Origin: a virus
Taxonomy: Duplodnaviria > Heunggongvirae > Uroviricota > Caudoviricetes
IMG/VR virus record: IMGVR_UViG_3300021399_000001
Span: 69,905-133,904 of that record
Length of the DNA: 64,000 nucleotides
Strand: one strand, 5' to 3'
The notes under the pieces were generated by a model, which did no database searches, was not told the origin of the DNA, and saw only the letters and a list, made by a program, of their open reading frames with translations. This document shows, one piece after another, positions 60,139-63,308 of the stretch. Every line of letters begins with the position of its first letter. Within the stretch, counting starts at the first letter, position 1. Made by a program: the position numbers and the translations under genes.

Positions 60139-60255
60139 ATGAATAGTCCTTGTGTTAAGTGCAACCCTAAAAAAGAAGATTGTTATAAATGGTCTACTTG
60201 TTTTAAGCGAAAATTATGGGTTAAAATTTGTAAAATTTTTGGAGGTATAATATGA
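60139..60255 (+). CDS. small Cys-rich protein (38 aa)
   Basis: ATG-60139 after TAAAGGAGGATTTT. ORF track 60040 starts inside the promoter TTGACT. An 18-codon uORF at 60090 has a strong RBS. Confidence 0.35.
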   Translation: MNSPCVKCNPKKEDCYKWSTCFKRKLWVKICKIFGGII

Positions 60256-60908
60256 AAAATGAAAAGCCACTTGGTTATCTAGGCGGAGACATTATGACTT
60301 TTGGAAGCAATCTTGCGCGTGAATACGAATACGAGCAATTTAAAAAGGCAGAAATTCCAGGAGAAGTATATTCGCCCGTTCAAAACAAATCAATTAATGA
60401 TAAATCAAATATGACAGAAGAAGAAAACAATGTACTCGCAGAGAAGATTGTTGCTGCTGATGTAGAGCGTTTATGGAATAGTGACTATACTGTGCTTTGT
60501 CCAGAACAATCCGCCATTGGCACTATGTGTGAAATGGGGATTTTATATGGTTGGAAATATATGCTTGAACATATCGCTGATGAAGCCAAGGAAAAGTTCT
60601 GGCAAAAATATAATAATGATGAAACAGCACAAAGAATAGATTCTAATTATAGAAACATGACTCAAGAAGAAAAAGCATATATGTATGATTGCTTTTATGA
60701 AGTTATGAATAAACAATGGCAAAAACAAAATTATGCTCATTATTTTGATATTCGCACTAATCATCTAAATGAAAAAGATTGGCGTCGTAGTTTTTCTATA
60801 AATCAATTTTTGTATGGAATTATTCTCGCGGCAACTGCCGATGGAACTTTACATAATTCATTTGATGAAATTTTACCAATTTTGAAGGAGAAATATAAAG
60901 ATGAATGA
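60252..60908 (+). CDS. nucleoside 2-deoxyribosyltransferase-like protein
   Basis: PLGYLGGDIMT...YSPV and GTMCEMGILYG (putative nucleophile Glu) fit the NDT fold pattern. Confidence 0.45.
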   Translation: MKNEKPLGYLGGDIMTFGSNLAREYEYEQFKKAEIPGEVYSPVQNKSINDKSNMTEEENNVLAEKIVAADVERLWNSDYTVLCPEQSAIGTMCEMGILYGWKYMLEHIADEAKEKFWQKYNNDETAQRIDSNYRNMTQEEKAYMYDCFYEVMNKQWQKQNYAHYFDIRTNHLNEKDWRRSFSINQFLYGIILAATADGTLHNSFDEILPILKEKYKDE

Positions 60909-62178
60909 TATGCTTTATAATATTAATGACCGTCTTCCCGCAAAGCGACTAATTGTCGCTGCTCTACAACAGGTAATTGCTTGCTTTGTAGCCACAATTC
61001 TTATTCCACAGATTTGCGGTATTCCCATTGCCCCAGCAATGGTAGGCGCTGGTATCGGTACACTTGTTTATCAGCTATTCACACACTCACAAAGCCCTAT
61101 GTTTATTAGCTCTTCTGGCGCTTTTGTCGCTGCTGTCATGGGCGCGTTAGCATTGGGAACAGCCCCTAATTTTACTGCTGTTGCCATTGGTGGTGTTATT
61201 GTAGGTATTGTTTATTGTATTATCGGTAGTATTATTAACCATTTTGGTACAGACTGGATAAATGAATTACTACCTCCTGTTGTAATCGGACCAGTCGTAG
61301 CGGTAATTGGTTTAAATTTGGCTACTTTCCTTCCAACCTATTTTCAAGTAAATGGACAATATAGTTTAATTGGATTTGGTTTTGGTATGCTTACTTTAGT
61401 AATTACTGCACTAATTTCTCATTATGGTAAAGGATTTATTAAAAATTTACCTTTCTTATTTGCTATTTTGATTGTGTATGTAATTGCAAGTATTACAACC
61501 GCGATTCACCATATTCCTCTTGTAAATTTTGCAGCATTCGATAATGTTCATCTATTTGCAATGCCTGATTTTAGTTTCTTCCACATTGATTTTACTACAT
61601 TTAATTGGAAACTATTACCTCAGATATTATTACTATTCTTGCCTCTTTCGCTAGTTACTTTTTCTGAGCATATTTCAGACCATAAAGCTCTAAGCGCCGT
61701 TATTGGAACAGACTTAACTGAGCATCCAGGTCTTGGTAATACAGTTATTGGCGATGGTATTGCTTCTACTGTTGGCTGCTTTATTGGTGCCCTACCAAAT
61801 ACTTCTTATGGTGAAAGCGTAGGAACCACCGGTTTTAGTAAGATTTGCTCTAAGCATGTAATTCGTTTGGCCGCAGTTATTATGGCTATTGCTGGTTTCT
61901 TTGGACCACTTCAAGCTTTCCTAGTTTCAATTCCAAGTTGCATCTTTGGTGGATGTGCAGCGATTCTTTATGGATATATTACTCTATCTGGTATTCGCAC
62001 AATTAAAGACAGCGGAATTGATTTAAATAATAACAAAAATGTAATTATTCTTGCTTCTATTCTAACACTTGGTGTATCTGGCGTAGTTTGTAATTTTGGT
62101 ATCATTTCATTTGGGACTACTGCGTTAGCTATGATTGTTGGAATTGTATTAAATATAATTTTAAAAAATAATAATTAA
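60901..62178 (+). CDS. NCS2-family nucleobase (uracil/xanthine) permease
   Basis: 425 aa with ~12 TM segments. LQQVIACFVATILIPQICGIP and GIGTLVYQLFT match the NCS2 signature regions. Confidence 0.6.
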   Translation: MNDMLYNINDRLPAKRLIVAALQQVIACFVATILIPQICGIPIAPAMVGAGIGTLVYQLFTHSQSPMFISSSGAFVAAVMGALALGTAPNFTAVAIGGVIVGIVYCIIGSIINHFGTDWINELLPPVVIGPVVAVIGLNLATFLPTYFQVNGQYSLIGFGFGMLTLVITALISHYGKGFIKNLPFLFAILIVYVIASITTAIHHIPLVNFAAFDNVHLFAMPDFSFFHIDFTTFNWKLLPQILLLFLPLSLVTFSEHISDHKALSAVIGTDLTEHPGLGNTVIGDGIASTVGCFIGALPNTSYGESVGTTGFSKICSKHVIRLAAVIMAIAGFFGPLQAFLVSIPSCIFGGCAAILYGYITLSGIRTIKDSGIDLNNNKNVIILASILTLGVSGVVCNFGIISFGTTALAMIVGIVLNIILKNNN

Positions 62179-62194
62179 TGGAGGTATAAATATT

Positions 62195-62482
62195 ATGGAA
62201 ACAAATAAAACAATTAAATTCAATGATTTAACTAGAGAATTTATAGAAGATTTTATTTCAAAAATGAGCAATGATGATAAAAAGAAATTAAAACAGTATA
62301 TAGAAGATAATCCTAAAAATTCATCAACCGCATTATTTACAATGGTAAAAAGTTACATTTATAATTATTATTTTCGTGCTCAATCATTACCTGCTCATAA
62401 AAAAAACACTTTTGCTGACGTAATTGATTCATTATTAGAATGTGATGAAGAACAGGTAAATAATAATGAAAAAACAGAATAA
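62195..62482 (+). CDS. hypothetical protein
   Basis: RBS AATGGAGGTATAAATATT; 95 aa. Confidence 0.5.
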   Translation: METNKTIKFNDLTREFIEDFISKMSNDDKKKLKQYIEDNPKNSSTALFTMVKSYIYNYYFRAQSLPAHKKNTFADVIDSLLECDEEQVNNNEKTE

Positions 62483-63308
62483 TTTTGTAAAAAGTCCAAT
62501 GAATTATCCCGGCAATAAGTATAAACTACTTCCACAATTATTTCCTTTGTTTCCTAAACATATTAATAATTTTATTGATTTATTTGCTGGCGGATTAGAT
62601 GTTTCTTGTAATATTCAAGCCAAAACAAAATACGCTAATGATATTAATCAGCCATTAATAGAAATTTATAAAGCTTTTCAAACAATAAGCTATGAAGAAT
62701 TAATAAATTTTATAAACATGCGCATCAAAGAATTTGAATTAACCAAATATAACTATGATGGTTTTATCCGGTATAGAACGTTATATAATAATAATCCTCA
62801 ATATCATACCCCATTAGATTTATTTGTATTATCACGTTTTACTTATAATAACGTACTTGATATTAGAAATGGAATATCAAACGCAGGTTTTGGCTTTGAT
62901 CATTCTGATTTTAATATAACTCAAAGAGCTCACACCAAATTTTTGCACGAAAAAATATCAAATATTATTTTTTCTTCTTTAAATTTTTTGGATTTTAATA
63001 TAAATAATTTTAATAATAATGATTTTTTATACGCTGATCCTCCTTATTTAATAAGTGGGAATGTATATAAAACAATTAATTGGACTGAAAAAGAAGAAAA
63101 AGAATTATACGAATATTTAGATCAAGCAAATGAAATAGGAATTAAATGGGGATTATCAAATGTAGTATCGCACAAAGGAGATGTTAATGATATCCTGGCC
63201 CAATGGATGAGTAAATATAACGTTTATGATATTAATTCTAATTATTCTAATTCTTATTATAAACATAAAGATAATTTTACAATAGAAGTTTTTATTACAA
63301 ATTATTGA
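62466..63308 (+). CDS. dam: DNA N6-adenine methyltransferase (Dam / D12 class)
   Basis: SPMNYPGNKYKLL, DLFAGGLDV (motif I) and YADPPY (motif IV). Confidence 0.7.
   Translation: MKKQNNFVKSPMNYPGNKYKLLPQLFPLFPKHINNFIDLFAGGLDVSCNIQAKTKYANDINQPLIEIYKAFQTISYEELINFINMRIKEFELTKYNYDGFIRYRTLYNNNPQYHTPLDLFVLSRFTYNNVLDIRNGISNAGFGFDHSDFNITQRAHTKFLHEKISNIIFSSLNFLDFNINNFNNNDFLYADPPYLISGNVYKTINWTEKEEKELYEYLDQANEIGIKWGLSNVVSHKGDVNDILAQWMSKYNVYDINSNYSNSYYKHKDNFTIEVFITNY

What the first reader, a model, noticed from the sequence alone, without database searches (positions are those of the whole stretch)
60252..63308. Phage-encoded nucleobase permease (NCS2) beside a nucleoside-deoxyribosyltransferase-like gene and a Dam methylase
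A full-length 12-TM uracil/xanthine-type transporter in a phage genome is unusual. Paired with an NDT-like enzyme (GTMCEMGILYG nucleophile motif), it suggests a nucleobase salvage or base-exchange route. That route could feed phage DNA synthesis or a DNA modification pathway. The Dam-type methylase follows immediately.
Basis: partly seen in the sequence, partly recalled or inferred. Interest (0 to 1): 0.6.

Follow-up and report, generated by a model that had tools for sequence, protein, structure and literature searches.

The report
Phage nucleobase permease paired with deoxyribosyltransferase
A roughly 180-kb gut phage, probably from ruminants, carries a full-length nucleobase transporter that in every relative examined sits just downstream of a deoxyribosyltransferase-family gene, which points to a virus-encoded route that turns imported free bases into DNA precursors; the neighbouring Dam methylase is not part of it.

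Summary
Window 60252-60908 encodes an NDT-superfamily protein with the Tyr/Asp/Glu triad intact. Window 60901-62178 encodes a complete NCS2/NAT permease that aligns end to end with E. coli UraA and keeps both substrate-binding glutamates. A Dam-family methylase follows, after a 95-aa ORF.

The window is part of a 182-kb phage contig. In every related contig with upstream DNA (46/46, then 75/75, in two overlapping scans) an NDT-family gene lies upstream of the permease. It is one of two diverged, mutually exclusive subtypes, A or B. Both are closest to the purine-specific EfPDT. On a permease tree the subtype changes at least 17 times.

A more distant phage-like contig and Clostridium phage c-st carry the same pair; in c-st a thymidine kinase lies nearby. 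Dam is present in only some relatives and its position varies.

Best reading: an early-expressed salvage module in which imported base plus a deoxyribosyl donor gives a new deoxynucleoside (or nucleotide). Which base is carried, which donor is used, and the direction of transport are not settled. Nothing found here indicates modified DNA.

Verdict: a new variant of known kinds, moderately interesting.

The parts
60011..60030 (+). Terminator-like hairpin (GAGGGAGAGAAATCTCCCTC followed by a T-run) directly after the PhoH gene; it would close the upstream transcription unit.
   Evidence: 8 pairs, 5 G-C, T-run; sequence read. Pattern match only.
60040..60068 (+). Near-consensus sigma-70-type promoter (TTGACT-17-TATAAT with an extended -10 TG); the likely start of the NDT-permease transcription unit.
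   Evidence: 11 of 12 matches, the joint-best site (with 62336-62365) in 56-64 kb. It lies in the 240-nt intergenic gap. The leader 59991-60112 is 83-90% identical in relatives L001, L004, L013 and L047. Consensus match only; promoter-like sites are not enriched in the region overall.
60140..60255 (+). Small 38-aa Cys-rich ORF with its own AAAGGAGG ribosome-binding site. Its TGA overlaps the NDT start (ATGA). This is the plausible real part of the mechanical 'orf71' (60040-60255). Function unknown.
   Evidence: Sequence read. Partial matches of 78-86% in L004 and L047. Not called as a gene on the source contig.
60252..60908 (+). NDT-superfamily protein, subtype A (218 aa), with a helical insert of about 55 aa. 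Triad Y9/D70/E94 plus N184. The predicted deoxyribosyl (or deoxyribose-5-phosphate) transferase of the module.
   Evidence: family profile against EfPDT 7M5H, 3e-12; model pLDDT 89.6; Foldseek top hit 7M5H; hhalign against subtype B, 99.7%.
60901..62178 (+). NCS2/NAT nucleobase:cation symporter homologue (425 aa, UraA-like 14-TM fold). Its start overlaps the NDT stop by 8 nt, and an AAGGAG ribosome-binding site lies upstream. E256, G304 and E305 match the UraA binding site. G73, D260 and S306 differ from UraA.
62195..62482 (+). 95-aa ORF of unknown function. In relatives it accompanies Dam, not the permease.
   Evidence: orf95 lies just upstream of a Dam gene in L012, L019 and L045.
62466..63308 (+). 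Dam-family N6-adenine DNA methyltransferase with a DPPY motif. A variable accessory gene, probably co-transcribed here but not a conserved partner of the module.
   Evidence: Variable presence and position. A second promoter-like site lies at 62336-62365.
56426..57004 (+). Deoxynucleoside-monophosphate kinase homologue, a possible downstream step of the salvage route (an inferred link).
   Evidence: PF21448, 34 bits; phrog_139, 6e-29. Conserved in the same block in relatives.

Best explanation
A two-gene nucleobase-salvage module expressed from the phage's own promoter, in the region that also encodes replication and nucleotide-metabolism genes. The permease would import a free nucleobase with a proton or cation. 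The adjacent EfPDT-like enzyme, using Glu94 as nucleophile, would move a 2'-deoxyribosyl group from an available deoxynucleoside onto that base. Possible donors are products of host DNA breakdown or of the gut environment. The new deoxynucleoside would then be phosphorylated by host kinases and the phage dNMP kinase, supplying precursors for the 36%-GC window DNA.

Shown here:
- Both proteins are intact members of their superfamilies, with catalytic and binding residues conserved.
- They are arranged for translational coupling.
- The pairing is kept in every relative examined, despite repeated replacement of the NDT subtype.

Inferred:
- The direction of transport.
- The identity of the base.
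- Whether the donor is a nucleoside rather than a nucleotide.
- The benefit to the phage.
For: Permease:
- Full-length match to UraA.
- UraA E241, G289 and E290 are kept as E256, G304 and E305 in all 50 aligned phage-contig permeases.

NDT-like protein:
- Y9, E94, D166 and R168 are invariant, and D70 and N184 nearly so, across a family alignment averaging 29% column identity.
- The family profile hits EfPDT at 3e-12.
- A confident model (pLDDT 89.6) has EfPDT as its best fold match.

Linkage:
- An NDT A or B gene lies upstream of the permease in 46/46 loci and in 75/75 loci of a second, overlapping scan that added 15 loci with only 44-49% permease identity.
- A and B are homologous (hhalign 99.7%) and never occur together in the slot.
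- Their distribution needs at least 17 changes on a tree of 73 distinct permeases.
- The pair also occurs in L052 (NDT-B followed by permease), in L048 (NDT-A with a 38%-identical permease) and in Clostridium phage c-st. There CST091 is the permease, CST093 matches PF05014 at 49 bits, and CST095 is a thymidine kinase.

Conservation and expression:
- The permease is the best-conserved gene of the block: median 77% identity, against 43-62% for the dNMP kinase, PhoH, ClpP and ligase genes.
- The NDT stop and permease start overlap by 8 nt.
- A terminator-like hairpin and a promoter-like site lie upstream.

Background: NDTs serve deoxynucleoside salvage in lactobacilli (PMC12372993).
Against: - The predicted specificities do not obviously match. 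EfPDT acts only on purine deoxynucleosides (PMC12372993), whereas the permease scores best against uracil permeases.
- The permease fails every curated NCBIfam cut-off, including the NCS2 superfamily model (238.7 against 291.8).
- It differs from UraA at F73 (Gly), H245 (Asp) and N291 (Ser).
- The sugar-binding Asp of NDTs (EfPDT Asp80) is missing in both subtype A (a gap) and subtype B (Pro).
- No deoxynucleoside or thymidine kinase was found within about 8 kb in this clade.
- Subtype-A-like NDT genes are common in isolated phages with no permease: 477 records, including Staphylococcus phage K. The NDT therefore does not need a phage transporter.
- There are no biochemical data. Shared ancestry explains part of the co-occurrence.
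Confidence: 0.55

Rival explanations
1. The NDT-like enzyme works on nucleotides, like Rcl/DNPH1 or phage DmtZ. It would cleave a canonical dNMP, or transfer deoxyribose-5-phosphate from it to another base. The permease would bring in the acceptor base or dispose of the released one. The purpose would be to reshape the dNTP pool, possibly for a non-canonical base in phage DNA.
For: - DmtZ of Z-genome phages is an NDT-family dAMP hydrolase that also transfers deoxyribose-5-phosphate to base Z (PMC12884076).
- The Asp that binds the sugar in nucleoside-specific NDTs is absent in subtypes A and B.
- DNPH1 structures appear among the fold matches.
- A dNMP kinase gene lies in the same block.
- A third paralogue, 6 kb downstream and outside the window, has Thr and Ser where NDTs have Asp and Asn.
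Against: - Profile and fold matches to the nucleoside-specific EfPDT (3e-12; TM-score 0.72 normalised to the target) are much stronger than those to DNPH1 (0.06).
- The Asn of the NLM-type motif is kept (N184).
- Subtype B matches EfPDT over its whole length, including the NLY motif.
- No modification genes such as PurZ or DpdA were seen in the DNA examined.
Confidence: 0.15
2. The two genes act independently. The permease simply raises uptake of a base such as uracil, which host phosphoribosyltransferases convert to nucleotides for RNA and DNA synthesis. The NDT does its usual job, as in the many large phages that have no permease. Adjacency reflects a shared early nucleotide-metabolism region.
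For: - Homologues of subtype A occur in 477 isolated phage records that lack a permease.
- The best NCBIfam match of the permease is uracil permease, whereas EfPDT is purine-specific.
- In some relatives 0.2-1.6 kb separates the two genes.
Against: - The NDT slot next to the permease is always filled, although its occupant has been exchanged at least 17 times.
- The pairing survives divergence to about 26% permease identity in c-st.
- The genes overlap in the window and in its closest relatives.
Confidence: 0.2
3. The unit is a moron-like cassette that benefits a carrier cell during lysogeny or pseudolysogeny, by helping the host scavenge nucleobases, rather than serving lytic replication.
For: - It has its own promoter after a terminator-like hairpin.
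- c-st carries the same gene pair, two genes apart rather than adjacent. From my own recollection, not checked here, c-st persists as a plasmid-like prophage.
Against: - The unit sits among ligase, dNMP kinase, RNase H, PhoH and topoisomerase genes.
- No integrase or partition genes were seen in the window.
- No terminator-like site was found downstream of the unit.
Confidence: 0.07

Closest known systems
E. coli UraA uracil:H+ symporter (PDB 3QE7; NCS2/NAT family)
   Same: 33% identical over the whole length (137 identical positions in 421 alignment columns). The alignment runs from residue 7 to 407 of UraA's 429 residues, that is, nearly the whole protein. Both substrate-binding glutamates and Gly289 are kept.
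   Different: F73 is Gly, H245 is Asp and N291 is Ser in the phage-type permeases. The score of 258 bits is well below the 477-bit uracil-permease cut-off. Asp at the 245 position is the general NAT state, as in UapA D360 and XanQ. A Glu in TM10 also occurs in the broad-specificity transporter rSNBT1 (PMC3405029). The substrate cannot be assumed to be uracil.
EfPDT, the type I (purine) nucleoside 2'-deoxyribosyltransferase of Enterococcus faecalis (PDB 7M5H)
   Same: Best sequence and fold match for subtypes A and B. Shared features are the Tyr/Asp/Glu triad, the IND-K loop, the D-x-R motif, an Asn-x-aromatic motif and an insertion after strand beta-4.
   Different: Subtype A has a much longer helical insert and is about 17% identical in the structural alignment. 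Both subtypes lack EfPDT Asp80. Activity and base preference are untested.
Clostridium phage c-st genes CST091 (putative uracil permease), CST093 and CST095 (thymidine kinase)
   Same: An isolated 186-kb phage with the same permease-plus-NDT combination close to a type II topoisomerase gene. Its permease shares the G73/D245 signature.
   Different: The permease is only about 26% identical. The gene order is permease, one ORF, then NDT. CST093 is deposited as a 'conserved hypothetical protein'. A thymidine kinase is adjacent there but was not found near the module in this clade.
DmtZ of Z-genome phages Ghobes and Wayne (PMC12884076)
   Same: A phage-encoded NDT-superfamily enzyme that exchanges bases to feed phage DNA synthesis.
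   Different: DmtZ is Rcl/DNPH1-like and acts on dAMP. It is linked to DutZ and PurZ0, not to a transporter. The window protein is closer to nucleoside-specific PDTs.
Subtype-A-like 'nucleoside 2-deoxyribosyltransferase' of Staphylococcus phage K (ORF20) and other large myoviruses (PHROG 1817)
   Same: The same family (33-35% identity over more than 90% of the protein; PHROG 1817 at 1e-35).
   Different: No NCS2 permease match was found in those phages' records. The function of the family in those phages is, to my knowledge, untested.

Membership tests
NCS2/NAT nucleobase:cation symporters (Pfam PF00860) | A significant, near full-length match to the family model | tested here: met
   PF00860 at 1e-61, 209 bits against a cut-off of 27, covering model positions 3-384 of 389.
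NCS2/NAT nucleobase:cation symporters (Pfam PF00860) | The complete 14-segment (7+7) UraA-type architecture | tested here: met
   A single alignment to UraA covers residues 7-407 of 429 with only short gaps. This rests on sequence alignment; no structure was predicted for the permease.
NCS2/NAT nucleobase:cation symporters (Pfam PF00860) | A substrate-binding Glu in TM8 and a Glu or Gln in the TM10 signature motif | tested here: met
   E256 and E305 align with UraA E241 and E290. Both are invariant in the 50 aligned phage-contig permeases. Their roles are described in PMC3405029.
NCS2/NAT nucleobase:cation symporters (Pfam PF00860) | The canonical NAT signature [Q/E/P]-N-x-G-x-x-x-x-T-[R/K/G] | tested here: inconclusive
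   The window has E-S-V-G-T-T-G-F-S-K. The Asn is replaced by Ser and the Thr by Ser in most clade members. The motif is quoted from my own knowledge.
Uracil permease UraA/PyrP equivalog (NCBIfam NF007995) | A score above the curated cut-off | tested here: not met
   258.4 bits against a cut-off of 477. The protein is also below the cut-offs for TIGR00801 (238.7 against 291.8), RutG and PbuX.
Nucleoside 2'-deoxyribosyltransferase superfamily (Pfam PF05014; EC 2.4.2.6) | A match to the family model or to a solved member | tested here: met
   The single sequence is below the Pfam cut-off (22.5 against 28.8). The family profile hits EfPDT at 3e-12. The model's best fold match is EfPDT, E 5e-6, TM-score 0.72 normalised to the target. 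PHROG 1817 scores 1e-35.
Nucleoside 2'-deoxyribosyltransferase superfamily (Pfam PF05014; EC 2.4.2.6) | The catalytic triad Tyr, Asp (or Asn) and nucleophile Glu | tested here: met
   Y9 and E94 are invariant and D70 is at least 90% conserved in 36 diverse family members. They align with EfPDT Tyr5, Asp60 and Glu86 (residue roles from PMC12372993 and PMC12884076).
Nucleoside 2'-deoxyribosyltransferase superfamily (Pfam PF05014; EC 2.4.2.6) | The sugar-binding Asp six residues before the nucleophile (EfPDT Asp80) | tested here: not met
   The position is a gap in subtype A and Pro in subtype B.
Nucleoside 2'-deoxyribosyltransferase superfamily (Pfam PF05014; EC 2.4.2.6) | The Asn of the NLM/NLY motif, supplied to the partner subunit | tested here: met
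   N184 is at least 90% conserved and aligns with the EfPDT 'NLY' region. Subtype B has NLY.
Nucleoside 2'-deoxyribosyltransferase superfamily (Pfam PF05014; EC 2.4.2.6) | Transfer of deoxyribose between bases | not testable with these tools
   This needs an enzyme assay.
Rcl/DNPH1-type dNMP N-hydrolases | Closest similarity to DNPH1, together with phosphate-binding residues | tested here: inconclusive
   DNPH1 scores only E 0.06 with the family profile and ranks below the NDTs in the fold search. No conserved Ser pair was identified. Absence of the Asp leaves the question open.
Dam family DNA-(adenine-N6)-methyltransferase (TIGR00571, PF02086) | A score above the curated cut-offs, and the DPPY catalytic motif | tested here: met
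   TIGR00571 at 121 bits against 114.85. PF02086 at 104 bits against 22. 'YADPPYL' is present in the translation. The target sequence was not tested. GATC is the most depleted of 16 four-base palindromes, at 0.45 of expectation.

The most novel reading that the evidence does not exclude
The pair is a self-contained viral pathway, not described before, in which a phage-made membrane transporter feeds free bases straight to a dedicated transglycosylase. This would let the phage build deoxynucleotides without ribonucleotide reduction. It could serve to re-balance the base composition of recycled host DNA, to escape host defences that deplete dNTPs, or to load a non-canonical purine into its DNA, possibly at the dNMP level as DmtZ does.
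Probability: 0.15. Interest if true: 0.8.

Novelty: new variant of a known kind. Interest (0 to 1): 0.55.

Why it matters
Phage genes for membrane transporters are rare, and none, to my knowledge, has been tied to a specific nucleotide-salvage enzyme.

This module is strictly conserved in an abundant, uncultured group of about 180-kb ruminant-gut phages; the word-limited protein search returned 2,681 permease clusters at E <= 1e-20, and its best 120 are all at least 79% identical to the window protein. It is also present, unrecognised, in the botulinum-toxin phage c-st.

If the coupling is real, it shows that large phages can tap the extracellular nucleobase pool for DNA synthesis. It also offers two compact, testable parts, a divergent NAT transporter and two NDT subtypes, that are of interest for nucleoside biocatalysis.

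It is equally useful to know that the Dam methylase is an unrelated variable neighbour, and that nothing here yet points to modified DNA.

Tried and rejected
- Near-identity DNA search of 59000-64000 against isolated phages found nothing.
- Most permease 'phage' hits in GenBank are short or unverified records with UraA-like residues (F73/H245) and no NDT nearby. I judged them likely bacterial DNA.
- PDB searches with the single subtype-A sequence, and with a shallow alignment, were not significant (E 0.14 and 0.32).
- The first AlphaFold model, built on that shallow alignment, was unusable (pLDDT 65.5). A diverse alignment fixed both problems.
- Rfam search of the leader for a riboswitch that might name the ligand returned only chance-level matches.
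- The genome-contig scan for cellular relatives returned only four contigs binned into MAGs: two clade contigs, the phage-like L052 and one weak partial match. No bacterial context was obtained, and only weak host hints (Clostridia).
- A thymidine kinase like that of c-st was not found within the fetched flanks of this clade. The rest of the 182-kb genome could not be reached with the look-up rules.
- Literature searches for a phage nucleobase permease, or for an NDT-permease pairing, found nothing relevant.
- Apparent permease 'pseudogenes' in some relatives were rejected. Their in-frame stops are of a single kind, TAG or TGA, in each contig. Across the conserved genes of the block, in-frame TAG falls most often at Gln positions. 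This indicates recoding, not decay.
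Full report
**What is there.** On the + strand the window has a run of closely spaced or overlapping genes:
- a dNMP-kinase homologue (56426-57004)
- an ATP-dependent DNA ligase (56997-58124)
- a ClpP-like protease (58167-58763)
- a PIN-PhoH protein (58744-60012)
- a 240-nt gap
- the NDT-like gene (60252-60908)
- the permease (60901-62178)
- a 95-aa ORF (62195-62482)
- a Dam-family methylase (62466-63308)

The family assignments come from Pfam, PHROGs and NCBIfam. Two details need correcting. The UraA fold has 14 transmembrane segments, not 12 (PMC3405029). Dam is separated from the permease by the 95-aa ORF.

**It is a phage.** The exact permease sequence lies on a 182,370-bp assembly contig. 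Locus L060 from that contig is identical to the window from position 50901 onward. Relatives are IMG/VR viral contigs, several of them 179-189 kb long. The window carries 29 tRNA genes, a tail protein and a Hoc-like domain and an r1t-type holin. All long ORFs are on one strand.

Host evidence is weak. Contigs of this clade were binned into Clostridia MAGs from ruminant gut samples. The tail protein is 44% identical to that of a Clostridium phage.

**The permease.**
- It aligns with E. coli UraA over residues 7-407 of 429, at E = 1e-52.
- UraA's uracil-binding Glu241, Gly289 and Glu290 correspond to E256, G304 and E305. Both glutamates are invariant in the 50 aligned phage-contig permeases.
- Three differences from UraA recur in the phage-type proteins: Phe73 to Gly, His245 to Asp and Asn291 to Ser. 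The first two are also present in the distant versions in L048, L052 and c-st.
- According to PMC3405029, Asp at the 245 position is the usual state in the family and is essential in XanQ. A Glu in the TM10 position occurs both in UraA and in the broad-specificity rSNBT1.
- The protein falls below every curated NCBIfam cut-off. Uracil permease is the best match, at 258 bits against 477.

I therefore regard it as an intact but divergent NAT transporter whose base cannot be named from sequence.

**The NDT-like protein.** As a single sequence it is below the Pfam threshold and gives no significant PDB hit. Close homologues (67-93% identical) show a very conserved N-terminal 105 residues and C-terminal 60 residues, around a variable insert of about 55 residues.

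An exhaustive search of 1.84 billion cluster representatives found only 147 related clusters. In an alignment of 36 diverse members the invariant residues are Y9, N49, K51, G90, E94, D166, R168 and G189. D70 and N184 are nearly invariant.
- That profile hits EfPDT (PDB 7M5H) at 3e-12, with E94 aligned to the nucleophile.
- A model built on that alignment is confident (pLDDT 89.6).
- The model's best fold match is EfPDT, followed by other NDTs and then DNPH1.

EfPDT's catalytic residues are Tyr5, Asp60, Asp80, Glu86, Asn130' and Tyr132', and the enzyme acts only on purine 2'-deoxynucleosides (PMC12372993). The window protein keeps the equivalents of Tyr5, Asp60, Glu86 and Asn130 but has no counterpart of Asp80.

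**The linkage.** This is the main result.
- In 49 IMG/VR loci found with the permease, the closest relatives (95% permease identity) seemed at first to lack the NDT gene.
- They carry instead a different 170-aa NDT gene in the same slot. This 'subtype B' matches EfPDT over its full length at 3e-19 and passes the Pfam cut-off.
- Every locus with upstream DNA (46 of 46) has either A or B, never both, upstream of the permease.
- A second scan, using an alignment of diverse permeases, re-found many of the same contigs and added 15 loci at only 44-49% identity. Again 75 of 75 loci had A or B directly upstream.
- A and B are clearly homologous and share the same conserved residues (hhalign 99.7%, E 1.6e-26).
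- On a neighbour-joining tree of 73 distinct permeases (37 with A, 36 with B), parsimony needs at least 17 switches.

The slot has thus been refilled many times, always with an NDT. Inherited synteny alone does not predict this.

Three further observations point the same way:
- The permease is better conserved than its neighbours: median 77% identity, against 62% for the ligase, 49% for ClpP, 46% for the dNMP kinase and 43% for PhoH.
- The NDT stop and the permease start overlap, by 8 nt in the window and by 1 nt in L001.
- The pair recurs in a distant phage-like contig (L052: ligase, NDT-B, permease, type II topoisomerase). It also recurs in Clostridium phage c-st. There the annotated 'putative uracil permease' CST091 lies two genes from CST093, a 'conserved hypothetical protein' that matches PF05014 at 49 bits. 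CST095, two genes further on, is a thymidine kinase.

**Dam.** Dam is present in only some relatives. Where present it usually lies upstream of the NDT gene, and in three loci (L012, L019, L045) the 95-aa ORF sits just upstream of it. It is a variable neighbour, not a partner. GATC is the most depleted of the 16 four-base palindromes in the window (0.45 of expectation). This fits restriction pressure at that site but says nothing about the module.

**Expression.** A terminator-like hairpin (60011-60030) follows PhoH. An 11-of-12 promoter match with an extended -10 (60040-60068) lies in the gap. This leader is 83-90% identical in relatives. In L001, L004 and L013 it precedes a 99-100-aa gene and then NDT-B. 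In L047 it precedes a homologue of that gene and then NDT-A. The window has lost about 280 bp holding that gene. No riboswitch was found in the leader. These are pattern matches, not proof of transcription.

**Mechanism.** The best-supported reading is import of a base by the permease and transfer of deoxyribose to it by the NDT enzyme, as in the deoxynucleoside salvage of lactobacilli (PMC12372993). Phosphorylation would follow, with the phage dNMP kinase as one step.

Several observations count against a simple version of this:
- the predicted base preferences do not match (purine-type enzyme, uracil-like transporter)
- the sugar-binding Asp is missing
- no nucleoside kinase was found near the module in this clade
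- subtype-A-like genes occur in 477 isolated phage records, including Staphylococcus phage K, with no permease

The main rival is a nucleotide-level reaction like that of DmtZ. DmtZ is a phage NDT-family enzyme that hydrolyses dAMP and transfers deoxyribose-5-phosphate to base Z (PMC12884076).

**Known or new.** Each protein belongs to a known superfamily. A 'uracil permease' was annotated in c-st, and PHROGs already holds both families. I found no description of the conserved permease-NDT module or of its subtype swapping. I rate it a new variant of known kinds, with interest 0.55.

Noticed in passing
Relatives L011, L012, L018, L039, L045 and many others; distant loci L052, L128, L131, L136, L138, L139: Many relatives have in-frame TAG codons in the conserved genes of the block, most often aligned to Gln of the window proteins. 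In the permease gene, the 44-49% sub-clade has in-frame TGA instead. The window and its closest relatives have neither. Stop-codon recoding therefore seems to vary within this phage group.
   Followed up: partly
L060 17320-17778 (source contig, about 6 kb beyond the permease and outside the window): A third NDT-family gene of 152 aa (PF05014 at 59.6 bits; best PDB hit BpNDT 6EVS, 8e-9), conserved in many relatives. It has Thr where NDTs have the sugar-binding Asp, and SLM in place of the NLM motif. This may mean it acts on nucleotides. It is followed by DUF2726 and GyrB-like genes.
   Followed up: partly
window 28277-51011: 29 tRNA genes covering most amino acids, interspersed with small ORFs.
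   Followed up: no
window 32738-40339: A cluster suggestive of RNA repair: DUF5662 (32738-33238), a metallophosphoesterase (34520-35185), a DUF2828/DUF7788 protein (36359-37891), a cyclic-phosphate-processing receiver domain (38810-39196) and an RNA ligase (39689-40339).
   Followed up: no
window, whole: GATC occurs 67 times against about 148 expected from a second-order model. This is the strongest depletion among the 16 four-base palindromes tested.
   Followed up: partly
window 60090-60146: A short ORF (MGQYFEENWYWIKGGFYE) begins like the 99-100-aa gene that precedes the NDT gene in relatives. About 280 bp of that gene are missing here relative to L047, so this looks like a deletion scar in the leader.
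   Followed up: partly
Protein P0141: A 3,283-aa protein in the representative library matches the C-terminal segment (residues 162-207) of the subtype-A NDT in 16 separate stretches. Unexplained.
   Followed up: no
window 1-27150: Most of the very large ORFs (about 600-1,100 aa) have few or no PHROG matches, so the structural module is poorly related to described phages.
   Followed up: no
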